Source: Prorocentrum cordatum | Taxonomy: Eukaryota | Length of the DNA stretch: 64,000 nt | Assembly: GCA_963575745.1 (NCBI GenBank) | Contig: CAUYUJ010000115.1 | Span: forward strand, 558,001-622,000 | Reading direction: 5' to 3' | Shown: in pieces, positions 24,301-42,500 of the stretch | Numbering within the stretch: the first letter of the stretch is position 1 | Layout: each line of letters starts with the position of its first letter | Notes under the pieces: generated by a model | What the model was told of the DNA's origin: nothing | The model's database searches: none | The model's input: only the letters and a program-made list of their open reading frames with translations | Translations under genes and position numbers: made by a program

Positions 24301-26870
24301 TGAAATATACTCTAGTTGGTGGTGCACTTGTTCATTCTGCCTGACAGTCTTGTCTCTGTTGCGTAGTGCTGCATGTTCTTTTCTTAGTGCCGCTTCAGTA
24401 TGTGCATGTAGTTGTAGCTCTGTCAGTCGAAATGTTTGGTTGAGCTCCTTGGCGTCGTGGAAGTTATTGGAGAGGTGGTCATGCGCCGCTTGTAGCTGAT
24501 GTATGGTGTCTTCTGTGGTCCGTAGTCGTACTGCTCAGTTGTCTCTTGCTGTCGCCGTCTTGCTCTGCTGTGTGCCTCTGGACTCTAATGATCTTGTCGT
24601 TGTCCTTGGAACGGTCGTATGCTGACTGTAGCAGTACCTTGGAATCGGCGTGCTTCCCGATCGTCTTTTGGGTTGGGTTGGTGAGATGTGGCCGGCTGGA
24701 GTGTGTCTAGTGGAGGCCGATTCGTTGGGTATCTGCCGAGCTGTATGTTTTGTGTCCATGAGTATGGATTCGGTGTGTGCTGTCTATTGTCGGATAATTA
24801 TTGTTCCAGGTTGGTGTATGTCTTGGTCTTGAAAGTGATGGTATTATGTGCTTGTTGTGTTTTTTGAGCGATGCCTCCGACATCTTGGCTCATGCTTCAT
24901 AGTCGTCCTTGGGTCGGCGTTTAGACTGCAGTTGTTTCTGCTGGTAGCTTTTGATCTAGCAATTGTCGCTTGATGACTGCAACCTGCTGTCGTAGCTGGA
25001 GTGTATCTTGACCTGCGCTCTCGACTTCCATGGCCTGTGTGGCAAGTATGCGAAGCTCGGTTGCTTTTTGTCGTATGCCAGGCCCCAACCATGATGAGAG
25101 TAGCACCTGGTTTGTCCTTGTGCAGGGCGTCATTGTACTGCCTCGGAAAAGCTTTCTCCGAACGCCGTCACAGACGCCCATGCCGACCCACAGCGTGTTG
25201 GGAATGTCCACGCCCATGCCGCCTGCCATTATGTTGCGCAGTCGTGGCACATGTGGACCACAATGGGCATTCATGACACCGTGCCATTATTTCGGTTTGT
25301 ACACGCCTACAACGACGTGCGTTCATTCACTATTCCGTGTCGGAAAGAACGTGACAGATCCCATTGTGTGTTGACAGCGAACGGCGACCATGACGAATGT
25401 TTCCGACCGTGCAGACATTCATTTTTTGTTCCGCTCCGCGAGCCTCGTGAAGGTTTCTTGAATTACGCATTGGAAAACCCAATCAGTGGATGTTTTGAAA
25501 AGTAGTCACATGGATTTTGATATCGATTTAGATCGATAATGAGATCGATAGTGTAATCGATAGAGGACGAGTGTAAGGTCGATCGTGAGACCGAGAGTGA
25601 AATCGATTCAATGAGATCGATAGGGAGATCGATCGCGAGATCGTTCGTGCGATCTCTAGTGAGATCGTTTGTGGCATCGATAGTGAGATCGATTGTGAGA
25701 TCGATGGTGAGATCGATAGAGAGGTGGGAAATGAGATCGATGGTGAGACCGATCGATAATAAGATCGACCAGGAACCCGGGAACCCAGTAACCTTGCCGC
25801 CCACCGAAATCAGCCCAGAACCCGGAATCGGGAACCCAGAAACCCAGCGTGCGACCAAAATCAGCGGGAAATGTTCGCCAAATCCTTCAACCTCCGCTAA
25901 GACCCCGTCAGTGCAAGCACTGATTGGGAAATAACCAGGCTCCACCCACTCCTGGATAACGTTTTAACTGAAGGAATGGATCACCCCAGGCCCCCCCCCC
26001 CCTGCAGGCGGAAACCCGTTTAGCTTTTTTTGTCGGGAGGAGCCTTTTGACCGCGCGCCTGATGATGCGCCCGGGATTGGGCGCAGAAGCCTTCATTTGT
26101 CCTGCGGGTGTTGTTGGGGCCTTGGTGTGGCGTTTGGAGAAACACTTCCGAGCCTGTAGCATGCTTCCAGAAGGTAGTCGATGAGTGCCTGATGCTCTCG
26201 TGCAGTGTAGATTTTGTAGTCATCGCGTCTTGCTGTAGGTGTAGCCCGGCGGTTGTGGTTTGGGTCTTGGCGTCGGTCGTTGTGGACGTCGCGCGTGTAG
26301 TTGATGCTCCCAGGGTTATGGTGCTCTGGCTTGCTGATGGTAGGTGTCGCTGTAGTACTGCTGGTTGGGTTGTTTTGACCTCGTGTGGTCGGCTGGCTGG
26401 TCGTCGGTGCACTGGGTAGGTAAAACCGATAGGCTGCCAAGTGGGTAGTTTCCTCTTGCCGTGGTTGTGCTTCTGTTGATGTGTCCCTCTGCTTTTGCTT
26501 TTGGCGTGGGACATTGTGCTGGTCGTCGGTCTAGGTGGTTGTTGTGCGCTGTGATGTTGGTCGAGCAGTTGTCGAGCTATGTTGGGATTATGCTGGGTGT
26601 GCTGGACCAGTTGGGTGCGTGCTGAAGCAACTCGCAGTAGTGAAGGTGCTGTAGCTCGTTGTTTCGGCTTGCGTCGGTGCCGGGGACAGTTTGACGTCGA
26701 CGTTGTCGTTGCGCTACTGCTTGCCAACTCCTGCATCGGGAGTTGGTGCTAGGTGCTAGGTGGCGGTTGCTTGGCGAAAACGGAGGTGCATGTTGTGTTT
26801 GTGCTGTCGTTACCGTTGGTAGTAGTTGACGAAGTCGCGGTGGTGCTTCGTCTTGGCCAAAATGGCCGTC
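21360..26870 (-). pseudogene. Heavily decayed non-LTR retrotransposon remnant(s), interrupted near 25450-26100
   Basis: Minus-strand fragments resemble APE motifs (KVKVIV..GHAPQH; RTLFHKRPDDVYT vs NTIFHKPPEKQIT in the intact LINE) and RT motifs (PGDNLTSLL, VVLYGERM); coiled-coil-like fragments at 23331-25274; SL-like gccattttggccaag at 26852-26866; many stops and frameshifts. Confidence 0.4.
25461..25933 (-). mobile_element. Asymmetric-IR (Helitron2/Helentron-like) element, copy 2, with internal gagatcgat array
   Basis: Perfect 11-bp IR cccaatcagtg (25478-25488) / cactgattggg (25918-25928); terminal hairpin cagtgc-aa-gcactg. Confidence 0.65.
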
Positions 26871-27894
26871 CAAGTGGTGGTGGTGCTAGGGCCACCCGAG
26901 AAGTAAACGAACAATAGGGAGTATAGGTGTCTGGAGGAAACGGAACGTAAGAGGTGTCTGGTGATACGGAATGTAAGAGGTGTTCGATTATTTGATATTG
27001 GTGATGTGATGCCGATGGGTCGGCGTAGTGCGTATGACGCCTCAACCGATTTGCTGGTCGTAGTCTCCTCTTCCTCCTCATCCAGATTCCGCCTCCCCTC
27101 TGCAAATGCTCAGATGTTTAGCACTAGCAGGCCGCTTTCTGGTTGATTGGGAGTTTCTGCATATATAGAAGAAGGAGCTTGATTACGCGGGTAAGTAGGA
27201 TGCCAGGGTGGGCGGGGCCTGGTGGACGCATATTGTAAAGATATGAGGCGGAACGTAGGTGCGTCCCCAATGCCGTGTGAAACGCAAGCCATTGCAAGTT
27301 GCACTTCGCGATCAATCCTCGAGCCGCCATCCTGTTTTCGCGGCCTTTGCCCATGAATCTGAACGTTTACGCTTCCAGCCCATCTCGCTCCCGTGCTCGC
27401 ATCCTCCACCTTTTCCTCCACATCCTCCCAGGAAACCCCTGAAGTCGAACCCTCGATCCTCGATCCCGGGAGGTCCCTGGAGGTCATCCCTCCTCCTCCT
27501 CCTCCTCCTCCTCCTCCTCTTTTTCCTCCTCCTCCCCCTCAGCATCATAATCCACACATTATTGCTCTCTCCTCTTCCTCTCTCTCATCCCTCTTCCCTT
27601 CTCCCTCGTCCGTCGTTGTGCTCACAGTGCGGGTATTATGCCAGTAGTGTCATCAGATGTTTGGGGCAGGTCTGCCTCAGGTGTACGAATGCGAATCGAG
27701 CTGTTTATTTGAATCGGGTCGAGTCCGATCGTTGGCCGAAGGCGCTAAGCAAGGCCGCGAAGCTGGCTCGCAAGCGTCCGTAGGCGTCGTTTCGTCTCGC
27801 ATCGCGACTGTTCTCACTCTCACTCTCACTCACTCACTCTTTCGTCTTCCCGTGGGGCCTGGGAGGGCGTTGGCGGCCCTCGTGGCGCTTGGTG

Positions 27895-30007: not shown

Positions 30008-30623
30008 GGCCAGTTTTTAGGGCGGGCCAGGCGTTTTGCCTGAGACTTCCTCACCATTTCTGATTCTGAAGCTTGAAAAATAGACACCAGCTTCACAGTT
30101 GGAGGGCGGCTGGTTTTCAAAATGTGGCTCTCGTCTCAGGGCCGCGCACACATTTGTTTTGAAACATGGCAAGAGTTTCACGGATTGAGGGCGGCTGGTT
30201 TTCAAAATGTGGGTCTCGCCTTAGCTCCGCGCACATTTGTTTTCAACAGTTGCAGGAGTTGCACGGATTGTGGGCGGGTGGTTTTGAAAATGTGGTTCTC
30301 GTTCTAGCGCCGCGCGCATTCGTTTTCCGAATGTGCAAGAGTTTCACGGATTGAGGACGGCTCCTTTTCAAAATGTGGTTCTCGCTTTAGCGCCGCGCGC
30401 ATATGTTTTAAACATGTGCAAGAGTTACACGGATTGAAGGCGGGTGATTTTCAATATGTGGTTCTCGCCTGAGCACCGCGCACTTTTTTCATACAAAATT
30501 CAAGAGCTTCACGGATTGAGGGCGGCTGTTTTCGCTTTAGGGCCGCACACATTCGTTTTCAACATTTGCAAGAGTGTCACTGGTTCCAGTGATCAACAAA
30601 CATACCAGTAATGGCGTTTTGGA
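30008..30623 (+). repeat. Composite repeat copy 1, left part (head plus ~78-bp minisatellite); right part at 35311-35610
   Basis: Head ggccagtttttaggg..gaagcttgaaaaa and unit caagagtttcacggattgagggcgg..ttttcaaaatgtgg align to copy 2; split by the minus-strand LINE. Confidence 0.85.
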
Positions 30624-32667
30624 TCAAATCAAAACGTTGTACATGCCGCGGCCGACGAACAGCAGCACGACATAAAAAATAGAAAAAGATCAGCAACTTT
30701 CGGGGGTGACACCCTCCTCCGCCGCCTCCTCCTCCTCCACCTCCGCAGATTTCTCTGCGCCCTCCTCGCCCTCCCCGTCCTCCTCCCTGCTCTCGCCCTC
30801 TACCTCCTCCGTTTCTCCATCCCGGGCATCTGCGCGCTGCCCTCTGCCCTCGCCTGGCGGGGTCCGCCTGTGCGGATGCCTCCCCGCCCCCTCCTCGACC
30901 TCCTCTCGCCGGGTGGGATCCGCCTGTGCGGGTGCCCCCACCCCGGCGGGGCCCGCCTGTGCGGGTGCCCCCACCCCTGCCTCTACCTCCTCCTCCTCCT
31001 CCTCCTCCTCCTCCTCCTCCTCCTCTGCCTCTCCCTCTGCCTCTCCCCCTGCCTCCTCGCCCTTCGTTGCGAGCCCGCTCCTCCTCTTCCTCCTCCTCTG
31101 CCTCCTCGGCTCCCTCGCCCTGCTGGCGCTGCTGCAGTTCCGCCTCTTCCTCGAGGAAGTCGTCCGCCTCCCTGCCCCCCTGCGGGGCCGTCTGCGCCGC
31201 CTCCTCAGGCGCTCGCCACTGACGGGCTGGATACCTGACGTCCCAGGTGCGTTCCGCCACCTCTTCCATCCAGCGCAGGACCAACCGATCCTCGTCCCGG
31301 CTGCGTCCCGCTGGCCAGCCCCAGCGCGCCTGCAGGGCGTCCCCTGGCCGGGCCGGGGCCCAGCGTGGTCGGTGTGTGCACCCCCACATGATGTGGTCCT
31401 GGTCTGGCAAGTCTGTGTCGCAGCTAGGCCACACGCAGTGGCATGCTTCGTCAAACTTCCCTCCTCCCGCTGCTTTCGCCGCCAGCGGCGACAGGAAGGA
31501 CCCGCACATTATGTGCATCCTCGTCCCCGCTCCGTCCTTTGCTGCCTCTCGGGCTAGCTTCACGCGGGCCTCATCGTATTCGACGCCCTGCAGCGGGGCC
31601 ACATCCCTCCTCCTCTGGCGCTTGAACTGCTGCCAGTTCCACCAGCGCCAGCCCTCGCACACCTGGTGCATCTGCCTGGCGTGCACCTCTTTCTCCACCT
31701 CGTCACAAGCTGGACGCTCCTGCAGGTCCAGCTCCATCCCCGTGCCCGGGTGGTACCAGTTCCAGGCGCTCGCGTCCCCTGCCAGCCCATTTTCCGCAGC
31801 CAGCAGCGCACCTCCGCCACTAAGGTGCCTCGCTTGCGGTACCAACTCGTGTACCAGCGGGAATCGTCTCGCCTCCGCAGCCGTCGCCGCATCGTGGCCA
31901 CCTGCCGGCACCCGATCACCACATCCGCCGCAAGGGTGCCGCCCTCGAGGATGTTCATGATGTGCTTGGACCCCATGGGGCATCCGCCTGCGCTCCTCCT
32001 GATCGCTGCCGTCACCTGGTCGGCCTTGACCCGGGGCGGGGTCTTCGCCATCCAGCCATAGGTGCTCTTGGACAACCCAAAGGCCCTGCAGTATTCCTGC
32101 TTCTTGCGTCGCCCAACCGGCAAGCATTGCAGGCGGCGGATCTCTCTCAGCGCGCTCTGTACCCGCGCTTCTTCCTTCACATGCATGCCTCTGCCCTGCA
32201 CCCCCACCGTGACGACTCCGAGGGCCTCCATCGCCGGGACCACCTTGTCCCCCAGCCCCTGCCTGTCTGCCTCCGCCCGCAGCGCCGCCTCCTCCGCGCG
32301 CCCGCGAGCAACGAGCTGGATCTTCCGTGGGTTCTCGCGGAGTCCCACTCGCGCGCTCCAGCGGTGCCAGATGGCCACCCGTCCCACCACCTCCACGGCG
32401 GTCGTCGCGGACCACGTCCTGTCGTCCATATAGATGGTGGACCTCGGTGTCCGGCCTGCCCGCCTCCCTAGCGCTCTCCTCCTCAGTCGTCCAGGCCCGG
32501 CGGCCTGTGAGCGCCCCTCGCCCGCTGCTGCCTCCTCCTGCCTCGGTTCCTCGGCCTCCTCCGCTTGGGCGTCCGCCGGGCCCTCTGTGCCCGGTGCTGC
32601 CCCTGTCTCCTCCGCCTGCGCCTCGTCGCAGTGCTCCTCCTCCGCCTCCGCCGCTGCTGCTGCTGCC

Positions 32668-32701
<34 letters not shown>

Positions 32702-35310
32702 CTGCTGCTGCTGCAGCTGCTGCTGCTGCCTCCTCTGCCCGTCGTGGTTCGGGCGTCGGCCCTCCTCCCGCCAGTGCTCCAGCGTGCTGCGGCGTCGCCT
32801 GCCTGGCCTCTCCTGCCTCCGCTGTCTACTCAGCGTGCTCTGCCTCTGCCTCTGCCTCCTCCTCCTCCTCCTCCTCCTCTTCCTCCTCGGCCTCCGCGCC
32901 TTGCGCTCTCGCCGCGGCAGCCTCCTCTTCCTGCCGCCTCACCCAGCGGGTTCCTGCGCCCATCCACACGTTGAGGGCCATCGGTCCGAAAGGATCCCCT
33001 TGTGGGAGGGCATCGCTTGCCACCAGGGCTTGGGGGCTCACGTGGCCATTCCAGATGACCCATCTGCGCTGGCCAGTCCACAGTTCCTTGCATTGGCGAG
33101 CGATCCTCCTGGGCCACCCCGCTCGCTCCAGCAGTTCACAAGTCACTTGGGGGTGCATGTGATCATAACACAACGAAAAATCCAGCGTGCCAGCATACCC
33201 CTGCTGTGCGAGGTTGTCCGCGATGTCCGCTGCTGCTTCCTCCGCGCCTTTGGAGCCGGCGCCACCCAGCACATCTTCGGGGATGTTGTGTCTCCTCCAT
33301 TCTGCGGCTGGGGCTGACTTGACCCATGCCGAAGCCCAGACGCGCCACCACACGCACTCCACGTTGATCGGCCGCGTGTCGCCAGCCTCCAGCCGGCCAG
33401 CCTGCACCTTGCCCGGCTTCGGGAGGTTCGCCTGCCGCGTCTCCTTCAGCACTTCTGGCACCTTCCCTGCTGTTTGCCAGCGGATGGCAATCATCCGAAA
33501 CAGGTCTGCCACTGCAGCCGGCATGTAGCGGACCTCTGGCCCAGACCAGCCGTCGACGCTGGCGCTGCCCTTTGCCTGCCCCAGCGCTCGCCGCACCTCC
33601 TGCTGCGTAGGGTCGCGCCACTCCACCGCATGGGGGTCCCTCTCATACTCCGCCGCCATGAGGTCGATCGCCTCACGCCTCCGCTGTTCAGCTCCTGATG
33701 CGGCCTGCGGTGCCCACACCTCCTGCCAGTGCTGGCGAATCGCCTCTGTAGCCTCTTCCAGAGTCTCCCTTGGCGCCCCTCGCCATGTGATTGTGGGCGT
33801 CGTCGCCATATCCTTCTGGCCGCGGAGCCACGCCGACACCTCCCGGATGCCGCCGCGCATGCGGTCCCGCCATTCCTGAAGCCGTTCCTGCCGCTGGGCC
33901 TCCTCGACCGCCTGCAGGGCCGCCTCCGCCTTGCGAATGCGGTTCTCCAGCTCCCTCAGGCTGCCTGCTTCCTCCTCTTCCTCCTCTGCCTCCTCTCCTC
34001 CGCCACTCGTTGCCTCCTAAGCCCTCCTCCTGGTCGGCCTCCTCGATGGCCTCCGCCTCTCTCCGCTCCTTTGCCCGGCCCGCGCTGCACCCTCCGCCAG
34101 AGCTGGCGCTGCTCCTCTGTGCTGCCCCAGGCGTCGCCGACCGCGGCGCGTTGCCTGAGAGCCTCCTTCGCCCTGGCGAGCCACCTCCTCGCCTTCCTTA
34201 CCTGGAAGGTGTCCTGGTTCTCCTCTCCGGAGCCTCGGAGCTGCTCCCAGCGGTGCTCCCCGCATCCTCCTTTGCCGCCCTTTGCGGCAGCGGCCTCCTG
34301 GCAGTCTGCGGCCGTGTCCTCCCTGCCCGCTGCGGCCTCCTCCTCCGCAAGCTTCCGAAAGGCGCGGCGCATCATGTCCCCCAGCGCCGTGTTGAAGTCG
34401 CCCCATTCCTCCTCGACCTGGATCCCCTCCTCCACAAGATCCGTCCTCCCCAGCCTCCTCCTAGTTTCTGCAAGCGTGAGCGTTGTCTCGAATCTCATCC
34501 GTGCCTCGGACGCTGCCGTGGCCGCCCAAGCCTCCTCTAGAGCCTGCCTCCATCTGTCGGCATCCACCCCCTTTGGTTTCTTCCAAGAGGGCGTCACCCG
34601 CAACTTGCCGATGCGCCTGTCCACCCGGATCTGTGTCCGGAGGGCCGTGCTCAGCACCTTGTGATCTGACGTCACCAGCGGCAGCGCTCGCATGTCGCCA
34701 ACGCACTCCCGCGCATTGGTGGCGAACCAATCCACCTTTCGTCGTCCACGCCACCGCGCGCCGTCTTCGCACCCTGGCAACACCACCCCGCCGTTGTGCA
34801 CGACCACCGCCTCACAGGCAGACTCGGCAGGTTCATCGTTGAAGTCGCCGCCCCAGAACCACGGCAGCCTGCGCCCGCCGCACTGCACAAACACCGCGTT
34901 GGCCGTGTCCAAGAGCGCCCTCCTCCCAGCAGCGGTGGGCGGCCCGTACGTGTTGAGGCACTGCCACCCCCCCACGCGCACCACCAGTGCCTGTGCTGGA
35001 CCCTCCGTCTTCCCCGTCACCAGGCTGTGGGGCATGGTCTTGCCCACCAGCGTAGCCACGCCTCCTAGAGCCGTCTCCTCGCCCCAGCGTCCGCGTCCTC
35101 GAGGCCCCTCCTGGCGATAAGCCTCATAGCCCCTCCTTTTGGCAGCGCGTGCGAAGCTCTGCCAGTCCTCGTGCCTCATGCGGAGCTCCTGGATCAGGAC
35201 CACGTCCGCATGCAACGCGCCTCCTGCCTGCCCCTCCTCCTCCTCCTCTGCCAGCTGGTACGGCCGGACCTCCTCCAGCAATCGCCATGCCCCTGGTGCC
35301 CCACCAGTGG
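30624..35310 (-). mobile_element. 5'-truncated non-LTR retrotransposon (LINE) with TTTGA-TTTGA 3' tail
   Basis: APE, RT and Cys/His domains on the minus strand; tcaaatcaaa at 30624-30633; both ends abut contiguous parts of the host composite repeat. Confidence 0.9.
30690..35310 (-). pseudogene. Disabled LINE ORF2 (APE endonuclease - reverse transcriptase - Cys/His domain)
   Basis: ADVVLIQE, GGVATLV, WGGDFND, KVDWF, SDHKVL; then VDGW, LPKPGK..TRPINV, LDFSLCYD, LPQGDPFGP, IYMDD (Y at 32430-32432); C-terminal CVWPSC..DHIMWGC. Frameshifts near 34020-34090 and 31780; in-frame TAG at 32826-32828. Confidence 0.9.
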
Positions 35311-35690
35311 CATGTTGATTCGGGATGACACGGGTGCAGCAGTTATGTTGATTCGCGGCGTTGAAGTCCCGCAAAATGGTGTTTTGGCACGATTCCGGGT
35401 CGTCAAGACGCAGCAGTCGGGTTGATCCGTTGTGGTGAAATCCCGAGAACAATGTTTCGGCATGTTGCAGGGTCTTCAAACGGTCGTCTTCCAACGAGGC
35501 AGTTCCCTCAATGGGAATGAACAGTTGTAGGGGCCTGTGAAGCGGGAGTTTGGAGGGAGGGTTAATTCCAACATCATTGATGATTCTTGGGTTTACATTG
35601 GTCCACCTGCTCCTCCTCCTCCTGCTCCTGCTCCCCCCTCCTCCTTCTCCTCCTCCTCCTGCTATTCCTCCTCCTCCTCCTCCTCCTCCA

Positions 35691-36690
35691 GGCCAGTTTT
35701 TAGGGTGGGCTGGGCGTTTCGCCTGAGACTCCCTCACCTTTCATGGCCCTGAAGCTTGAAAAAGTGGCACGGCACCAGTTTCACACTTAGAGGGCGGCTA
35801 GTTTTCAAAATGTGCCTTTCGCCTTAGCCCAGCGCACATTCGTTTTCAACATTTGTAAGGGTTTCTCGGATTGTGGGCGGGTGTTTTTCAACATGCTGTT
35901 TTCGCTTTAGCTCCGCGCACATTTGTTTTCAACATGTGCAAGAGTTTCTCGGATTGAAGACGGTTCTGTTTCAACATGTTTTCTCGCCTTAGCGCCGCGC
36001 ACATTCGCTTTAAACATTTGCAAGAGTTTCACGGGTTGCAGGCGGGTGATTTCCAACATCTGGTTCTCGCCTTAGCACCGCGCACATTCGTGTTAAACAT
36101 TCGCAACAGCTTTTGGGATTGAGGGCGGTTTTTCCAACATGTGGCTCTCACTTCAGCGCCATGCACATTAGTTTTCAAAATGTGCAAGAGTTTCACGGAT
36201 TGAGTGCGGTTCCTTTTCAAACTGTGTTTCTCGCATTAGCGCCGCTCACATTCGTTTTCAAATTATGCGAAAGTTTCGCGGATTGAGGGCGGGTGGTTTT
36301 AAACATGCGGTTCTCGCCGTAGCGTTGCGCACACTCTTGTGAAACAATTGTAAGAGTTTCGCGGGTTCCCATGATAGGCGTACCAGAAATGGTGTGTTGG
36401 AAGGATTCGCGAGTATGAGGGCGCAACAGTTACGATGATTCGCGGAGTTGAAGTCCCAGGAACGGCGTTCTGGTACGGTTCAGGATCGTCAAGACGCAAC
36501 AGTCAAATTTATCCGTGGCGTTGGAATACCGAGAATAATGTTTTGGCATGCTTCAGGGTCTTCAAACGGTCGTCTTCCAACGAGGCAGTTCCTTCAATGG
36601 AAATGAACAGTTGTAGGAGCCTGTGAAGAGGGAGCTTGGGGGAGGGTTTATTCCAACAGTGTTGGTGACTCTTGGGTTTGCGCTGGTCCT
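35691..36690 (+). repeat. Composite repeat copy 2, uninterrupted (head, ~78-bp minisatellite, tail)
   Basis: Tail ttcaaacggtcgtcttccaacgaggcagttcc matches 35475-35510. Confidence 0.85.
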
Positions 36691-36789
36691 CCTCCTCCTC
36701 CTCGTCCTCCTCCCCCTCCCTTCTCTTCGTCCTCCTCCTCCTCCTCGCCCCCTTCGACCGTCCGGTCCCATCGGGTCAGGCATATCAGG

Positions 36790-36990
36790 CGGGGTCGGAG
36801 CAGACGGTGTCGAGGGATCGCGGCGCGTCGCCGATGCATCGGCGATGCGGCTCGATGCGGGGCCCGAAATTCTCCACTCCGCCGTCGCCGATGCATCGCC
36901 GATGTCGCCAGTGCATCGCCGATCGGCGATGCATCAGCGATGCGGCACCATCCTCCGACCCCATTCACTCCGACCTCATCTGGGAGGCCT
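36790..36990. mobile_element. MITE-like element with long imperfect TIRs and internal gcatcgccgatgcatcggcgatgc palindromes; second copy 62578-62780
   Basis: ggggtcggag..ggatcgcggcgc and its complement at the ends; interiors of the two copies align. Confidence 0.7.
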
Positions 36991-37141
36991 CTAGAGAGGG
37001 AGAGAAGTCCAATCAGTCAATTAGTGGGTCTCGTTCCCTCTTTGTTTGTTTCTGTTGCCCTCATCCCCTGACTCGGGTTCGGGGGGTAAGCTGAGCCCGC
37101 AATGCCGGCGAAATGTGCTGTGGTGCTATTTTCAGTGCTGC

Positions 37142-37158
37142 TGTACCCCTCCGGCTGT
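37142..37158 (+). other. Left target-site duplication tgtacccctccggctgt
   Basis: Identical 17-mer at 41665-41681. Confidence 0.95.
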
Positions 37159-37161
37159 ACC

Positions 37162-37211
37162 CCATTTTGGCTCGAGCCATTTTGGCTCAAGTGTTTGGCT
37201 CAAGGCTCAAG
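37162..37211 (+). other. Tandem relics of the dinoflagellate spliced leader
   Basis: ccattttggctcgag (37162-37176), ccattttggctcaag (37177-37191, exact), tgtttggctcaag (37192-37204) and gctcaag (37205-37211), compared with SL DCCGTAGCCATTTTGGCTCAAG. Confidence 0.92.
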
Positions 37212-37311
37212 GGCTTGAGGCTCAGAAGCTATCATTGCCTGTCGCCGGGGCGGTCAAGCTTTCTCCATACTCAAGCTTTCTCCATACTCAATCTTCCAGC
37301 TAGCTTTTGCC

Positions 37312-38508
37312 ATGGCGAGTGCAGCACCGACGTCGCCAGCAGCCCGTGGCTCCACCCGCGCTCCAGGCACCCCGGTTGGGCACCTCGTCCAGGACCCCTG
37401 GGAGAGCATGGCCAAAAAGCAGCGCTCTGGACATGGCCCTGACTCCCCAGCGACCCCGCTCCTCGGCGAGATGCGCGCGGAGGATCAGGGGTACGTGCAG
37501 ATGCCTGGAGGCGACATGGACGGCCCAGCCGAGAGGGACGCTCCACCATTTCGCCAGCCGGATTTCGGCGCTGCCGCGGCCTCCTCGGAGAAGGACGATG
37601 AGCCTGTCACGATGGCTGGAATCGCTGCTCTCCTTCAGCAGCAGCTGGGCCCCGTGACTTCGGTGGTGGCAGATCTTAAGAAACGGTTCATGAAGCTCGA
37701 CAGCAAAGTTACCGACTTGGGCACTTCCCTTGTGGGCCGTTTGGACGACGTGGATGCGAAGCTGATCGATGCAGACCTGCGCATAGAGAAGCTTGAGAGC
37801 ATGTACGCGGCCATGCAGGCACCCCCCAGTGCCGCGGATATTGACGAGAAGATCCAGGCGAGCATCCAGCAGGCCTTCGCGAGCCAGGCCTCGCAGCAGG
37901 CGCCTCTCACCAAGAACGTCCCGCTGGTCGACAGGAAGGCGGTCACCATGGTGATCGGCAATCTGGACTACTTCGGGGACTTTTCGAAGGCCGCCGATTG
38001 GTTGCAGGGCAAGCTCACTTCCTTGAAGGGGCCTGCGCCGACGAACATGTACGTCAAGGGCGACTTTAAGGGCATCGTCTTCGCCGAGTTCTCTGACACC
38101 GCAGTGCGGGACCAGGCGGTGGCACTCCTTCGTGGTGCGGCCCTCGCCAGCGGAGGCAAAAAGGTCTGGGCAACGGAAGACCGAGCTGCCAGCGAACGTG
38201 CTGCGAGGAACTTCTGCCTGGGCTTGAAGCGGGTTCTGAAAGAGGAGTGGCAGGTCCCGTATACCATCTCGTTTAACAACGCGGCGCCGTACGTGCTCAA
38301 GGTGGGGGGCGAGCACGCGCTTACCGTGAACGTCTCCGGCAGCACCGTGGACTACGAGTGGCATGGGGACTGGGCAACTTGGTCCGAGCTCCACAACCAC
38401 TCCTCGATCAAGGACCTCAGGAAGAAGTCGGACGACCTGCTCTCGCGGGCCACGCAGGGGCTCAAAGGAGGCGCGAAGGGCTGCTCCAAGGGGCAACGGC
38501 CCCAGTAG
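37312..38508 (+). CDS. LINE ORF1 protein (398 aa; coiled coil plus RRM-like and C-terminal domains)
   Basis: Intact ORF with high GC3; heptad region VADLKKRFMKLDSKV..LRIEKLESM; VTMVIGNL, GIVFAEFSDTAVRDQAV and KVWATED..ER resemble the L1-type ORF1p layout. Confidence 0.85.
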   Translation: MASAAPTSPAARGSTRAPGTPVGHLVQDPWESMAKKQRSGHGPDSPATPLLGEMRAEDQGYVQMPGGDMDGPAERDAPPFRQPDFGAAAASSEKDDEPVTMAGIAALLQQQLGPVTSVVADLKKRFMKLDSKVTDLGTSLVGRLDDVDAKLIDADLRIEKLESMYAAMQAPPSAADIDEKIQASIQQAFASQASQQAPLTKNVPLVDRKAVTMVIGNLDYFGDFSKAADWLQGKLTSLKGPAPTNMYVKGDFKGIVFAEFSDTAVRDQAVALLRGAALASGGKKVWATEDRAASERAARNFCLGLKRVLKEEWQVPYTISFNNAAPYVLKVGGEHALTVNVSGSTVDYEWHGDWATWSELHNHSSIKDLRKKSDDLLSRATQGLKGGAKGCSKGQRPQ

Positions 38509-38520
38509 GAAACACGGCAC

Positions 38521-41500
38521 ATGAGCGATGTTTCACCCGAATTCGCAGTCGGCCCTACTGCGGCTATTAACCATGATCGAATTCACTCTTCCGATTCTTG
38601 CCAGGCATGTTTACCAGCAGTCGGCACTACTGCAATCATCCCCCCTCCTCTCTCCCGGGCTTCCGAAGCACTGCACTTCCGAGGCGGCGCCCTGCGGCCG
38701 TGCACCCGGAAGCTCCGGACAGCATCTTGGAACGTTGAGGGCCTCACCGAGGCCAAGCAAGCAGAATTTGAATGGCACATGACATCCATGAACATCGACG
38801 TCATGTGCATCCAGGAGACACACAAGACCGGGGCAGAGTTTTCCGTCTCTGATGCCGGATTTCTCCTCGTTCTCTCCGGCGCGTCGGACCCAGACGATAA
38901 TGAGACGGCGGGGGTCGGTTTCATCGTCGCGCCGCGCATCCGAACGTCCGTCGTGGGGTTCAGGCAACAGGACTCCCGGATGGCGTCCCTGAAGCTGCGA
39001 GTCAAAGGCGGCAAGATCATGATCTACACCACGTACGCTCCCCATAGCGGCAAGAGTTTCCAAGACAGACGGCAGTTTAATTCTAACCTAAGTACCTTCA
39101 TCGACAGCGGCTCCCGGCACGGCCCTGCCTTGGTCTTGGGGGACTTCAACGCTCGGCTTCATCGCCGGTATCCGGGCGAAGAGCACATTATCGGGCCCTA
39201 CATATTCGGAGTCCCGGACGCGATCTACAACCCCTCGTCCAATCGGAGCCTCCTCGCCGAGCTATGCGTCAACCAGAAGCTGTTTATTGGGAACACTATT
39301 TTCCACAAGCCGCCGGAGAAGCAGATCACGTGCTACAACGTGGGCAAGCGGCCGTGCGACCACCCTTCCCCAGACAATTTTGGACAGATCGACGTCGCCC
39401 TAATATCACAGGGTTGGACCCAGCACCTCACGGACGTGCACAGTGACCGTGGCCGGGCGCTGGCCTCGCACCATTTCTTGGTTTGCGCCGACCTCGACAT
39501 AGAAGTGCCGCTCGACAAGAAAACTCGCACTCCGCAGCCAGATTTTCGAGCTCTCCGGAGCCCGATACGGGCGGCTGCTTTCGCAGAGGCCTTCGGAGAG
39601 GCGGCGGGGAGGGCGACCGCGGGCCTGACGGCGAACGAAATAGAGGCGACTATGCGGCCAGCTTTCCGCTCTGCGGCTGCCGCAACTATTCCGGAGAACA
39701 CGGCCTCGCCGAAGAGGCCTTGGATCTCGCCCCACTCCCTCTCGCTGATCGAGCAGAGAACCGACGCCCGCCGCTCTGGGCGGACAGAAGAGGAGCATCG
39801 TCTGCATGTGGAGGTGAAGCGGTCGGTGAAGAACGACAGGTCGATCTGGCTCAACAACTTGCTTGAGACGGGCGACTGGGACCAGGTCCGCAAACTCAGA
39901 AGAGGCTTCGCTCCTGCGCGGCATGGGCGCCTACGCGGGATGGACGGCGAAGTGGTGCAATCAGATAGGAGAGCCGACGCGTTGGCCGACTACCTGTGCG
40001 ATGTTCAATGGGCCCCACGTGCTACGACGCCGATGGCACCTGCCCCGATTGGCCCGGAGCTGGAAGTCCAGACCGGTGACATCACAGAGGAGGAGATCAT
40101 CGATGCAGCGCGACGCATGCGATGGGGCAAGGCTTGTGGCCATGACGGCGTCCCCGGGGAACTGTGGAAGGCTATCTGCATGCACGCGGGGCCGGGGAGG
40201 GAATGGGCGCTAGCCCTGTGTCAGAAGTGCTGGAGAGACGGCTGCGTCCCGGACGCCTGGCACGAAGCCCTCGTAACTGCAATCTTCAAAAAGGGGGACG
40301 TGTCTCAATGTTCAAACTACCGGCCTATCTGTCTGTTGCAAGCCGGATATAAGATGTACGCCATGATCATCATGCGCCGGTTGAAGGACGCCGGCGCGGA
40401 GGCCAGGATCTGGCAGACTCAGTTCGGCTTCAAGTCTGGGCACGGGACGGCAGATGCCATATTCTTAGCGCGGCGCCTCTTGGAGGAATCCTGCGCGTTG
40501 CAGGGGTCCCCGCTGGTGCTGCTCGCGCTGGACTGGGCCAAGGCGTTCGACAGCGTGATGCCAGATGCTCTCCTCGAAGCGCTGCGCCGGTTTGGCCTGC
40601 CGCGGGAGGTGCTGGCCGCCGTGAGCGCCATCTATTCTGCCAGGAGCTTCGCGGTGAAAGAGTGCGGGCAGATTTCGGCGTCGCGAGAACAAGGAGCGGG
40701 CATTTGCCAGGGATGCCCGTTATCGCCTTTCCTCTTCGGGATGGTCATGACGGTGCTCCTGCACGACGCAAAGAACAGCCTCGGTGACCTGGCAGGACTG
40801 GTGGACGAGTTGGTGTACGCGGACGACACGCTCATCGTCGCGAGCGCATCCGGACACGCTGAGCAGTACATGAAGGCAGTGGAGAAGGCGGGCGCGAACT
40901 ACGGCCTCACCTTCAATTGGGGGAAGCTCGAAATCTTGGCCGTGGGATGCAACGCTGTTATTCGCAGGCCGGACGGGGCTGTCATTCCCCAGAAGGCAAG
41001 CGTCGTGTACCTCGGGTCCGTGCTTTCCGCAGACGGGACGATGCAGGCTGAGCTGGGCCGCCGCCTTGGGCAAGCGCGGGCAGAGTTCGAACTTTTACAC
41101 CGTGTCTGGAACCGCAGCAGCATCCCGATGCATAGAAAGATACAGATATACGAGGCGTGCGTGCAGACGAAATTACTGTACAGCTTGCACACGGCATGGT
41201 TGAAGCAGGACGAGCTGACCCGCATCGACGCCTTCCAAACAAGGTGCCTGCGGAGAATCCTCGGGATCCGCATTCGTACGTCAGCCGAGTGTCTAATGCG
41301 GACGTGCTGGCACGAGCGCGCAGGATGAAGCTTAGCAGTACTCTCTTGCAGCGGCAACTCACATACTTTTTCCATATTGCTTGTAAGGGTGATGACCACC
41401 CCTTGCGTTCAGCTATTTTTAGACCTTCCTCCCTCGACCTCCGCCCCCCCTCCGGCAAGCGGAAGAGAGGCCGACCGCGACAGACGTGGCCTGCCGAGGT

Positions 41501-41615
41501 GTACAAACTTGCAAGAGATGTTTGTGGCAGTCTTCAAGTTCCAATCGAACATTTATGCGCAATCCCAGTTCGAGACTGGAAGCGCGCAGTGCGGTCATTT
41601 TGCTTGGCACGGTAA
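38521..41615 (+). CDS. LINE ORF2: APE endonuclease and reverse transcriptase, with one frameshift near 41268
   Basis: SWNVEG, IQETH, YAPHS, LGDFNA, IDVAL, SHH; IFKKGD..NYRPI, QFGF, LDWAKAFD, QGCPLSP, YADD (40816), YLGS. The C-terminus PHSYVSRVSNADVL..GKRKRGRPRQTW continues in the 41157-41615 frame. Confidence 0.95.
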
Positions 41616-41664
41616 GTGTGCCATATTGCTCATGTGCCTTCTGACACACGGCTTTGACTTGACT

Positions 41665-41681
41665 TGTACCCCTCCGGCTGT
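41665..41681 (+). other. Right target-site duplication tgtacccctccggctgt
   Basis: Identical to 37142-37158. Confidence 0.95.
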
Positions 41682-42049
41682 CCAGGTCGTGCATTTTTTG
41701 TTTTCGTGGATGGCCGACCCTATCCGATCCTCCCCCTCCTCCTCCTCCTATGCAGGGGGAGGGGGGCCCCTGAGATCCAGGGCTCGACCTAAACGGTGTT
41801 TTGACGATGTTGACGACTGTTTTCTTTTTGATTTCGACGGCAAGGCGGAATGAAGACAGAACAACGCAAAACGAACACATAACGAGAAGGGGAAACAGTG
41901 CTCAGGTTGAGCCCTGCTGAGATGCTGGCGTGGCATTTTTGTTCACACTGGGCGACTCTGCCTTGGTTCGGGCCTTGGAACCCTCACGGATCGGGCTGGC
42001 TCGGAACACGCAGCAGAAATATTGGGTATTGGGTTCAGTCGGGCATGTC

Positions 42050-42500
42050 CCTCTACAGGAGGAGTGTTAAAAATAGTAAAAAAATAGTCTGGGGACGATT
42101 TTCGATAATTGTTGAAGATTGTTGATCATTTGTTGCGCCCTCTATTTCCAAAATCCGCTTGTAGGTGGACATGCCCGACCTTAGTGTTGGGCCCTGGTCG
42201 CGATTATTCACGATGCTGCACTTCTGGTTCCGCAGCGCCGGATCCCATGGGAGTGGGGCGCTCGGCGGAGGAGCAGGTACCTCTGCCGCTGCCCATCCCT
42301 CGTCTCCACGGCTGGATTCGCTTCGACATGCTGGTCTTAGATCGGGCGTGTCCCCTTATTGGAGGAATACTCGAAAGTAGTCAAGACATAGTATGGGATC
42401 CATTGTTTCATATTTTTTCGATTCGATTTGAGCATGTTCTGACTATTTTTTAGCGTTCGTCCAAAATCCGCCTGTAGATGGACACGCCCGACCTACTGCT
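42050..42500 (+). repeat. Direct repeats ending aaatccgc.tgtag.tggaca.gcccgacct; third copy near 43530-43645
   Basis: Motif at about 42150, 42463 and 43610. Confidence 0.65.

What the first reader, a model, noticed from the sequence alone, without database searches (positions are those of the whole stretch)
37142..41681. Full-length LINE whose 5' end is a stack of spliced-leader relics, in sense orientation inside a host intron: a retroelement that may use trans-splicing instead of an internal promoter
Seen: directly after the left 17-bp TSD the element reads ACC-CCATTTTGGCTCGAG-CCATTTTGGCTCAAG-TGTTTGGCTCAAG-GCTCAAG, with ORF1 about 100 nt later. It lies on the same strand as the host RRM gene, inside intron 5. 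Established: dinoflagellate mRNAs receive the 22-nt SL, and retrocopies that are trans-spliced again at the SL's internal AG leave 15-nt CCATTTTGGCTCAAG relics. Inference: the lineage has gone through at least 3-4 rounds of trans-splicing and reinsertion. With only about 150 nt of 5' UTR, it could be cut out of host read-through transcripts and capped by SL addition, each relic supplying the next AG acceptor. Caveats: the outermost relic has one mismatch while the second is exact, and the leading ACC could be SL lacking GTAG or a re-copy of target sequence (gctgtacccc occurs twice).
Basis: partly seen in the sequence, partly recalled or inferred. Interest (0 to 1): 0.9.

Follow-up and report, generated by a model that had tools for sequence, protein, structure and literature searches.

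The report
LINE retrotransposon capped by spliced-leader relics
A young jumping gene (LINE) in a dinoflagellate genome begins with a stack of leftover spliced-leader tags, which shows that it copies itself from processed, leader-capped messenger RNA just as the host's recycled genes do.

Summary
An exact 17-bp target-site duplication (37142-37158 and 41665-41681) brackets a 4.5-kb LINE. Its first 67 bases are ACC, then two 15-nt spliced-leader (SL) relics (one exact, one with a mismatch), then shorter SL pieces. ORF1 starts 100 nt after the last clear piece.

ORF1 folds like L1 ORF1p. ORF2 carries an AP-endonuclease and a reverse transcriptase. ORF2 has a one-base frameshift, which contigs from three sequencing runs do not share.

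A diverged relative on a metagenome contig (L001) starts with a complete 22-nt SL plus truncated relics. Two further ORF1 relatives (P0073, P0152) have N-termini that read exactly as translated relic stacks. SL-capped RNA is therefore the family's transposition intermediate.

Not supported:
- No RRM gene or host intron was detectable.
- No read shows SL joined to LINE RNA.
- The claim "trans-splicing instead of a promoter" stays an inference. A 15-nt relic does require transcription that began upstream of the element.

No ribozyme was found. My literature searches found no explicit description of SL relics inside a LINE's target-site duplication.

Verdict: a new variant of two known things, SL-relic retrocopies and L1-like LINEs. 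Interest is moderate to high.

The parts
37142..37158 (+). left target-site duplication (17 bp)
   Evidence: It is an exact repeat of 41665-41681. No match is expected by chance.
37159..37161 (+). ACC at the 5' junction. It may be SL nt 1-3 with GTAG lost. Alternatively the A may be SL nt 6, joined to the target's ...GCTGT by microhomology, with G7 replaced by CC.
   Evidence: Sequence. Both readings are my inference.
37162..37176 (+). SL unit 1, CCATTTTGGCTCGAG (1 mismatch). It is probably the 3' 15 nt of the parent mRNA's own SL.
37177..37191 (+). SL unit 2, an exact 15-nt relic CCATTTTGGCTCAAG
37192..37204 (+). SL unit 3, a 13-nt degenerate relic TGTTTGGCTCAAG
37205..37211 (+). SL unit 4, a 7-nt truncated relic GCTCAAG
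   Evidence: The same 7-nt unit occurs in L001. Truncated relics of this kind are described in transcripts (PMC12014239 passages).
37212..37225 (+). GGCTTGAGGCTCAG, possible further decayed SL debris
   Evidence: Sequence. The reading is inference.
37226..37311 (+). Rest of the 5' UTR. It has no upstream ATG. It holds a 17-nt tandem duplication (37259-37275 and 37276-37292) whose first copy ends in CTCAAG.
   Evidence: It is not conserved with L001. No Rfam family matches. The fold z-score is 0.24.
37312..38508 (+). ORF1 (398 aa): disordered N-terminus, long helix, RRM-like domain, C-terminal domain
   Evidence: No Pfam family matches. The AF2 model has pLDDT 61.6. The best Foldseek matches are human L1 ORF1p trimer chains, E 1.4e-4. 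The family has 925 representatives at E<=1e-3.
38521..41328 (+). ORF2 (935 aa as read): AP endonuclease and reverse transcriptase
   Evidence: Exo_endo_phos at 7.6e-8 and RVT_1 at 7.8e-34. A profile of the family matches human L1 ORF2p at E 6.8e-58.
41268..41615 (+). C-terminal part of ORF2, in a shifted frame (one base missing near 41267)
   Evidence: It aligns to P0004 residues 910-1023 at E 5e-21. An extra C sits behind 41267 in contigs of X1, X7 and X10.
41616..41664 (+). 3' UTR ending in ...GGCTT plus a TGACT x2 tail (41655-41664). There is no poly(A).
   Evidence: Relatives end in GCTT plus (GACC)4, (TACC)3 or TGACT x2. Other copies end at 41659 next to a different flank (table 7).
41665..41681 (+). 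right target-site duplication

Best explanation
This is a recently inserted, full-length, L1-like non-LTR retrotransposon of a GC-rich dinoflagellate. It was integrated by target-primed reverse transcription, which left the 17-bp duplication.

Its RNA template was a mature mRNA that already carried the dinoflagellate spliced leader at its 5' end, so the SL was copied into DNA as the first bases of the element. Earlier rounds left what lies behind it. When a copy was transcribed from upstream and a new SL was spliced onto the AG inside the old SL, a 15-nt relic remained. Splicing at other points left shorter pieces.

The lineage therefore cycles DNA -> pre-mRNA -> SL-capped mRNA -> cDNA, exactly as host 'recycled' retrogenes do. 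The element's heritable 5' end is set by trans-splicing, not by a transcription start.

Shown: the anatomy, the duplication, the domains, the same arrangement in diverged relatives, and the absence of a ribozyme.
Inferred: the number of cycles (at least 2-4); that unit 1 is the parent's own SL; and that in each cycle that made a 15-nt relic, transcription started in flanking DNA.
Not settled: where transcription normally starts.
For: - The exact 17-bp duplication encloses the SL stack and the whole LINE.
- The only two matches to the 15-mer in 64 kb sit in tandem at the 5' junction. CTCAAG is enriched in the UTR, 4 observed against 0.03 expected.
- ORF2 has APE and RT domains. ORF1 has an L1 ORF1p-like fold.
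- L001 encodes an ORF1 relative (35% identity to the window's ORF1; 96.5% to P0002). Upstream of its ATG it carries the full SL TCCGTAGCCATTTTGGCTCAAG, then GCTCAAG, TTGGCTCAAG and TTGGCTCAAA. The two 5' UTRs share only the SL-derived parts.
- P0073 begins MAQAILAQGSRLK and P0152 has PFWLKGSS. Both peptides lie upstream of the profile match and are what the standard code gives for stacked SL units.
- Relic formation by re-splicing at the internal AG is the published mechanism (passages in PMC3229502, and PMC7245778). Truncated relics are described in PMC12014239.
- DNA contigs of run X1 cover 37259-41659 at about 99.8% identity (1451 nt with 2 differences; 1896 nt with 3 differences and 1 gap). 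PolyA RNA-Seq contigs of X10 lie on 41215-41659.
- No Rfam ribozyme was found, and the 5' UTR folds no better than shuffles.
Against: - No contig shown bridges 37192-37259. A full SL joined to this LINE's RNA was therefore not seen.
- The outermost unit has a mismatch and lacks GTAG, which needs an extra event to explain.
- The 13-, 10- and 7-nt pieces need non-AG acceptors, truncation or slippage.
- Only one copy lies in the window, and no second 5' end from the same species was recovered.
- L001 lacks its 3' end, so no duplication could be checked there.
- The protein-level evidence is thin as a count. 2 of 152 ORF1 relatives carry an SL 4-mer, and 2 of 152 carry a reversed control 4-mer. 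The case rests on the length and position of the two matches. Their DNA was not seen.
- Among 119 genomic sites with an exact 21-nt SL in IMG/VR, none sits in front of this LINE family.
Confidence: 0.8

Rival explanations
1. The family has no promoter of its own. It is transcribed only as part of host read-through or gene-block transcripts, and it is cut out and capped by SL addition. The relics supply the next acceptors.
For: - A 15-nt relic requires splicing at SL nt 6-7 of the previous copy. The outron must then have begun in flanking DNA (inference from the mechanism).
- The non-SL part of the 5' UTR is short (86 nt) and is not conserved with L001.
- There is no ribozyme.
- Each relic ends in T-rich sequence plus AG, which resembles an acceptor.
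Against: - No host gene or intron was found around the element.
- The nearest neighbour upstream is a LINE on the opposite strand, and in L001 the upstream neighbour is also an opposite-strand LINE.
- No read-through RNA was seen, and no orientation statistics were possible.
Confidence: 0.3
2. The element has its own promoter, either internal (starting at or near +1) or carried by the SL relics themselves. Song et al. proposed that the TTTT/TTTG motif acts as a TATA substitute. In this model the relic stack serves as a disposable outron: some units are lost and one is gained in each cycle.
For: - Song et al. 2017 report that relict TTT(T/G) motifs are retained upstream of retrogenes and propose promoter function (PMC5585692 abstract and passages).
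- Several tandem units with mixed lengths fit a loss-and-gain equilibrium.
- Internal promoters are the rule in LINEs (own knowledge). L1Tc has one in another trans-splicing organism (PMC1874656 abstract).
Against: - A start at +1 leaves only a 7-nt outron before the internal AG, so it cannot make a 15-nt relic out of the outermost SL.
- Apart from SL pieces, no sequence is conserved between the two 5' UTRs.
- Promoter function was not tested here.
Confidence: 0.3
3. Only one SL capture occurred. The further units arose later in DNA by replication slippage or local duplication of the 15-nt unit.
For: - Units 1 and 2 are adjacent near-identical 15-mers.
- A separate 17-nt tandem duplication exists in the same UTR (37259-37292). 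Slippage therefore does occur here.
Against: - The units have different lengths (15, 15, 13, 7).
- The same mixed stacks recur in diverged relatives with other unit orders and in host transcripts.
- Decay increases towards the 3' side, as published for serial relics.
Confidence: 0.1
4. The stack is a chimera made during integration. The reverse transcriptase switched template from the LINE RNA's 5' end onto SL RNA or onto other SL-bearing mRNAs, as in U6/L1 chimeras.
For: LINE-1 forms such chimeras with small RNAs (bioRxiv 10.1101/2025.02.02.635956, abstract seen in the listing).
Against: - Every unit ends exactly at the SL exon's last base, with no SL-RNA intron sequence behind it.
- The units are in sense order with their 3' parts kept. 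That is what re-splicing gives, not a 3'-end template switch.
- The same layout is present in relatives.
Confidence: 0.04

Closest known systems
Dinoflagellate 'recycled' retrogenes with relic spliced leaders (Slamovits & Keeling 2008, as described in PMC3229502, PMC7245778, PMC5585692 and PMC12014239)
   Same: - Tandem 15-nt CCATTTTGGCTCAAG relics directly 5' of the coding region.
- Truncated units such as (G)CTCAAG.
- More decay towards the 3' side.
- Origin by reverse transcription of SL-capped mRNA.
   Different: Here the recycled unit is the retrotransposon itself, with its own endonuclease and reverse transcriptase. The stack is bounded by a clean 17-bp target-site duplication, so the integration mechanism is visible. 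The passages I read treat retrotransposons only as the presumed enzyme source. Song et al. 2018 favour LTR elements for that role.
L1-type LINEs (human LINE-1)
   Same: - Two ORFs.
- ORF1 with a long helix, an RRM-like domain and a C-terminal domain. The best structural matches are L1 ORF1p.
- ORF2 with AP endonuclease and reverse transcriptase, matching L1 ORF2p at E 6.8e-58.
- A target-site duplication.
   Different: - There is no poly(A) tail. Instead there is a 4-5-nt microsatellite tail.
- The 5' UTR is 153 nt and largely SL debris, not a long promoter-bearing 5' UTR.
- ORF1 matches no Pfam family.
L1Tc/ingi of trypanosomes and R2: LINEs whose 5' end is released from co-transcripts by an HDV-like ribozyme
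   Same: The concept is the same. The element's RNA 5' end is made by RNA processing of a longer transcript, and L1Tc does this in an organism that trans-splices its mRNAs (abstracts of PMC3185411, PMC3383444 and PMC3774820).
   Different: Processing here would be done by the host trans-splicing machinery, which also adds a cap-bearing leader. No ribozyme was detected. L1Tc transcripts are reported as unspliced (PMC1874656 abstract).
SL-gene-specific LINEs (SLACS, CZAR, CRE, NeSL; recalled from own knowledge, no paper read here)
   Same: These are LINEs found next to spliced-leader sequence.
   Different: Those elements insert into SL RNA genes, so the SL sequence is flanking target DNA. They also use a restriction-like endonuclease. 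Here the SL units lie inside a non-SL target duplication, and the endonuclease is of the AP type.

Membership tests
APE-type non-LTR retrotransposon (LINE), L1-like | Reverse transcriptase domain of the non-LTR type | tested here: met
   RVT_1 at 7.8e-34. The family profile matches L1 ORF2p at 6.8e-58 and R2 at about 1e-26 to 1e-33.
APE-type non-LTR retrotransposon (LINE), L1-like | N-terminal AP-endonuclease domain in ORF2 | tested here: met
   Exo_endo_phos at 7.6e-8, residues 68-309. APE1 and the L1 endonuclease are matched in the PDB.
APE-type non-LTR retrotransposon (LINE), L1-like | Target-site duplication flanking the insertion | tested here: met
   17 bp exact, with 0 of 100 shuffles matching.
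APE-type non-LTR retrotransposon (LINE), L1-like | ORF1p with coiled coil, RRM and C-terminal domain | tested here: inconclusive
   The AF2 model has only moderate confidence (pLDDT 61.6; helix 101-168, beta-alpha-beta fold 211-289). The top Foldseek matches are L1 ORF1p chains, but with E 1.4e-4 and TM 0.24-0.45. No Pfam family matches.
APE-type non-LTR retrotransposon (LINE), L1-like | 3' poly(A) tail | tested here: not met
   The element ends in GGCTT plus TGACT x2. Relatives end in (GACC)4, (TACC)3 or TGACT x2.
DinoSL-relic retrocopy | 15-nt relic CCATTTTGGCTCAAG encoded in DNA directly 5' of the transcribed unit | tested here: met
   Exact at 37177-37191, with a 1-mismatch copy at 37162-37176.
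DinoSL-relic retrocopy | Several units in tandem, more decayed towards the 3' side | tested here: met
   The units are 15, 15, 13 and 7 nt, followed by debris. The exception is that the outermost unit has 1 mismatch.
DinoSL-relic retrocopy | Mature transcript carries a full 22-nt SL in front of the relics | not testable with these tools
   No contig bridging the 5' UTR was shown.
LINEs with a 5' HDV-like ribozyme (R2, L1Tc, RTE) | Self-cleaving ribozyme at the element's 5' end | tested here: not met
   Rfam with permissive filters on 36500-42000 gave no ribozyme family. The 5' UTR fold z-score is 0.24.
SL-gene-specific LINEs | Insertion into an SL RNA gene, with SL sequence as the flanking target | tested here: not met
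   The SL units lie inside the duplication. The duplicated target and the right flank are not SL.

The most novel reading that the evidence does not exclude
A widespread dinoflagellate LINE family has given up a conventional 5' promoter. It rides on transcription that starts in host DNA, and it lets the host's SL trans-splicing machinery define, cap and make translatable its 5' end. The inherited stack of SL relics acts as a self-renewing acceptor cassette. The same family, with its 17-bp duplications and microsatellite tails, is the long-sought enzyme source for the mass retroposition of SL-tagged host genes.
Probability: 0.3. Interest if true: 0.8.

Novelty: new variant of a known kind. Interest (0 to 1): 0.6.

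Why it matters
About a fifth or more of dinoflagellate genes carry SL relicts (PMC5585692 and PMC6050394). The same papers state that the enzyme behind this retroposition is unknown, and Song et al. 2018 lean towards LTR elements.

Here a near-intact AP-endonuclease LINE shows, within its own target-site duplication, that its machinery copies SL-capped RNA end to end. That makes the question testable. One can compare the duplication length and 3' tails of SL-tagged retrogenes with this family's signature.

The element is also a natural example of a retrotransposon whose 5' end is set by trans-splicing rather than by a transcription start or a ribozyme. This bears on how mobile elements survive in genomes where promoters are poorly defined.

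Tried and rejected
- Whole-genome survey of copies: no genome is held for this window.
- Earlier notes of this scan: none relevant.
- Self-BLAST: no second copy in the window.
- Read laying:
  - The tables are cut (8214 pieces not shown), and no piece bridging 37192-37259 was listed.
  - The 13 loose ends behind 37192 in X7 differ from each other. They belong to other SL-bearing sequences, not to this LINE.
  - The joints at 36844->41780 and 36849->41728 have 21-23-nt sides in low-complexity sequence, so they are not an empty site.
  - Element pieces in X1 have word depth 12-16, against 2.4 for the one exact flank contig. The tool warns that this is not a copy number.
- IMG/VR:
  - No ORF1 relative was found.
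  - None of the 119 exact-SL loci encodes the family.
  - The ORF2 profile found only 4 distant LINE-like hits at 22-29% identity.
- GTDB genomes:
  - The family occurs on contigs of a mis-binned 'actinobacterium' MAG at 38-59% identity.
  - None of these contigs reaches a 5' end.
  - SL hits in those three MAGs sit in front of other sequences.
- Host RRM gene: not found.
- Second LINE on the minus strand: an SL-like string near 35755-35772 did not reach the score threshold in a local-alignment scan.
- Counts of SL-coded peptides:
  - 3-mers are only 1.9-fold enriched in the first 40 residues (11 in 6080 against 32 in 33987).
  - WLK is also a conserved ORF1 body motif.
  - The weaker N-termini (P0003 MWLKP, P0067 MILWLK, P0103 MAQAQA) are therefore hints only.
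- Literature: six searches and passages of 12 papers gave no explicit report of SL relics as part of a LINE. Subscription-journal papers are outside the library, and no supplementary files were opened. The gene lists behind Song 2017's GO result and the Symbiodinium DinoSL gene tables may name RT genes with relicts.

Full report
**1. What is in the sequence**

The 17-mer TGTACCCCTCCGGCTGT occurs exactly twice in the window, at 37142-37158 and 41665-41681. No shuffle of the window gave any match. Between the two copies lies a 4506-bp insert.

The insert begins as follows:
- ACC
- CCATTTTGGCTCGAG (37162-76)
- CCATTTTGGCTCAAG (37177-91, exact)
- TGTTTGGCTCAAG (37192-204)
- GCTCAAG (37205-11)
- GGCTTGAGGCTCAG

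The two 15-mers are the only matches in 64 kb at up to 2 mismatches. The expected number is 0.12. Four of the window's 14 CTCAAG hexamers fall in the 153-nt 5' UTR, against 0.03 expected. The UTR has no upstream ATG.

ORF1 runs from 37312 to 38508 and ORF2 from 38521 to 41328. ORF2 has Exo_endo_phos and RVT_1 domains. A profile of its family matches human L1 ORF2p at E 6.8e-58.

ORF1 has no Pfam family. An AlphaFold model of moderate confidence (pLDDT 61.6) gives a disordered N-terminus, a 68-residue helix, an RRM-like beta-alpha-beta domain and a C-terminal domain. Its best structural matches are chains of the human L1 ORF1p trimer (E 1.4e-4), followed by ordinary RRMs.

The element ends in ...GGCTT TGACT TGACT with no poly(A). 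The window has 58% G+C and holds no second copy.

**2. Two corrections to the observation**

The first concerns ORF2. It is interrupted: its last 115 residues lie in another frame and align to residues 910-1023 of relative P0004 (E 5e-21). Contigs of three runs (X1 DNA, X7, X10 RNA) all carry one extra C behind 41267, in a run of Cs. The break is therefore private to this copy or is an assembly error.

The second concerns the 'host RRM gene, intron 5', which I could not find. Pfam scans gave no RRM_1 hit. They covered + strand stop-to-stop ORFs of 40-45 aa or more across the whole window (147, 128 and 150 ORFs) and 150 ORFs of 150 aa or more on both strands. Pattern scans for RNP1 gave nothing convincing.

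The surroundings are repeats:
- a different LINE on the opposite strand at about 30580-35740;
- a tandem array at about 35760-36660;
- very high-copy repeats at 36787-36973 and 42023-42200.

Short exons could have escaped these scans, so this is 'not confirmed' rather than 'disproved'. The only RRM-like domain I saw is the LINE's own ORF1.

**3. Relatives**

ORF1 has few close relatives in the word-indexed search: 3 proteins, the only named one from Prorocentrum cordatum at 36% identity. A full profile search found 925 representatives at E<=1e-3 and 90 at E<=1e-30, so the family is large and unannotated.

The single metagenome locus recovered, L001, encodes an ORF1 relative (35% identity to the window's ORF1; 96.5% to P0002). 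Upstream of its ATG it carries, in order:
- the complete SL TCCGTAGCCATTTTGGCTCAAG
- GCTCAAG
- TTGGCTCAAG
- TTGGCTCAAA

About 60 nt of UTR follow before the ATG. The 5' UTRs of the window and of L001 align only in their SL-derived parts.

I examined 152 ORF1-family proteins for N-terminal extensions.
- P0073 begins MAQAILAQGSRLK.
- P0152 has PFWLKGSS 24 residues before its profile match.
- By the standard code, these are exactly the readings of stacked SL units: the SL 3' end, a 15-nt relic and 7-8-nt pieces. This is my decoding; the DNA was not seen.
- P0003 (MWLKP), P0067 (MILWLK) and P0103 (MAQAQA) are weaker hints.

As plain counts this evidence is weak. 2 of 152 proteins carry an SL 4-mer, and 2 of 152 carry a reversed control 4-mer. 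WLK is also a conserved body motif. The weight lies in the 13- and 8-residue exact readings and in their position.

Most family members start at their true ATG and say nothing either way.

Family contigs found in a mis-binned MAG do not reach a 5' end. Three of them share the 3' architecture: a TTGCTCAYGTGCC box, then GCTT, then (GACC)4, (TACC)3 or TGACT x2.

**4. Reads**

Run X1 (DNA) covers 37259-41659 in pieces that are about 99.8% identical to the window. It also holds the right flank exactly.

X7 shows a different flank behind 41659. Other copies therefore exist, and the tail length varies.

X10, a polyA RNA-Seq library, has contigs on 41215-41659. The tool warns that DNA can be present in such libraries.

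No listed piece bridges the relics and the unique UTR. SL addition to this LINE's RNA is therefore not shown directly.

**5. How it most likely works**

Established facts:
- Dinoflagellate nuclear mRNAs receive a 22-nt SL.
- When an SL-capped mRNA is reverse-transcribed, reinserted, transcribed again and re-spliced at the AG at SL positions 6-7, a 15-nt relic remains behind the new SL.
- Serial rounds stack such relics, with older ones decaying towards the 3' side (passages in PMC3229502, and PMC7245778).
- Truncated (G)CTCAAG units are common in transcripts (PMC12014239).

Here the stack lies inside the duplication of an AP-endonuclease LINE. The template of the last insertion was therefore an SL-capped LINE mRNA.

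Unit 1 is best read as that mRNA's own SL, slightly damaged. One reading is ACC = SL nt 1-3 with GTAG lost. The other is that the SL was joined to the target's ...GCTGT through GT(A) microhomology, with G7 replaced by CC. L001 shows the undamaged state. Units 2-4 record earlier rounds.

One inference follows from the mechanism. To make a 15-nt relic, the acceptor is at nt 6-7 of the previous copy, so the outron, with its branch site, must have started in flanking DNA. At least in those rounds, transcription therefore came from outside the element.

**6. What remains open**

Three sources of transcription fit the data:
- an internal start near +1, with splicing at a downstream relic, so that the stack acts as a disposable outron;
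- the relict TTT(T/G) motif acting as a core promoter, as Song et al. proposed for retrogenes.

I found no ribozyme and no unusually stable 5' structure. The L1Tc/R2 solution to the same problem (abstracts) is therefore not used here.

Other rivals are less likely:
- Slippage alone fits poorly, given the mixed unit lengths and their recurrence in relatives.
- A template switch onto SL RNA fits poorly, because every unit ends at the exon's last base.
- Insertion into an SL gene is excluded by the duplication.

**7. Comparison with what is known, and novelty**

The element works like a dinoflagellate SL-relic retrogene and is built like an L1-type LINE, apart from its microsatellite tail.

I ran six full-text searches and read passages of 12 papers. 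None states that a LINE carries SL relics as part of its transposed unit.

The nearest statements are these:
- Song et al. 2017 report that 'RNA-dependent DNA replication' genes are enriched among DinoSL-relict genes.
- The enzyme source of retroposition is described as unknown, with LTR elements favoured.
- Symbiodiniaceae LINEs are described as ancient and inactive (PMC10235124).

Supplementary gene lists were not opened and may name such genes.

I rate this a new variant of a known kind. That LINE mRNA is trans-spliced is expected. That the SL defines the heritable 5' end of a young, widespread LINE family, with clean duplications, is new as far as I could see. It also makes the 'who drives retroposition' question testable.

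Noticed in passing
window 30580-35740 (minus strand): A second, different LINE lies on the opposite strand: Exo_endo_phos in 33959-35740 and a weak RVT_1 in 32829-34016, split over three long ORFs. No significant SL relic was found at its 5' side.
   Followed up: partly
window 35500-36760: A tandem array of roughly 60-bp units (about 35760-36660) sits between the two LINEs. It is bracketed by two similar stretches of about 150-200 bp that each contain a GGA/GAG-rich run.
   Followed up: no
window 36787-36973 and 42023-42200: These short stretches have word depths in the thousands to tens of thousands in DNA and RNA runs. They are very high-copy repeats flanking the LINE.
   Followed up: no
window about 26860-26880 (minus strand): CCATTTTGGCCAAG is an SL-relic-like string with a 1-nt deletion. 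Its local-alignment score of 27 equals the best of 5 shuffles, so it is marginal. It may mark a retrocopy on the other strand.
   Followed up: no
L127:2305-2317; window 41620-41633; L128 about 1685-1710: The family's 3' UTR, about 35-45 nt before the tail, holds a box that resembles the SL in sense orientation. L127 has an exact 13-nt match to SL nt 2-14, followed by ...GCTCACG. The window has CCATATTGCTCATG. Only the GCTCAYGTGCC part is conserved. The meaning is unknown.
   Followed up: partly
L002-L120 (IMG/VR) and G001 (contigs L125-L131, L199): 119 exact 21-nt DinoSL sites lie in 'viral' contigs, mostly in giant-virus MAG bins. An 'actinobacterium' MAG holds at least 7 contigs of this dinoflagellate LINE family. 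Both look like dinoflagellate DNA binned into the wrong genomes.
   Followed up: partly
L001:3-917 (minus strand): The SL-headed LINE on the metagenome contig lies head-to-head with another LINE fragment (Exo_endo_phos 2.5e-10) on the opposite strand. This mirrors the arrangement in the window.
   Followed up: no
window 37312-38508 (ORF1): The ORF1 family has 925 representatives at E<=1e-3 in a library clustered at 50% identity. It matches no Pfam family, although it has an L1-ORF1p-like layout.
   Followed up: partly
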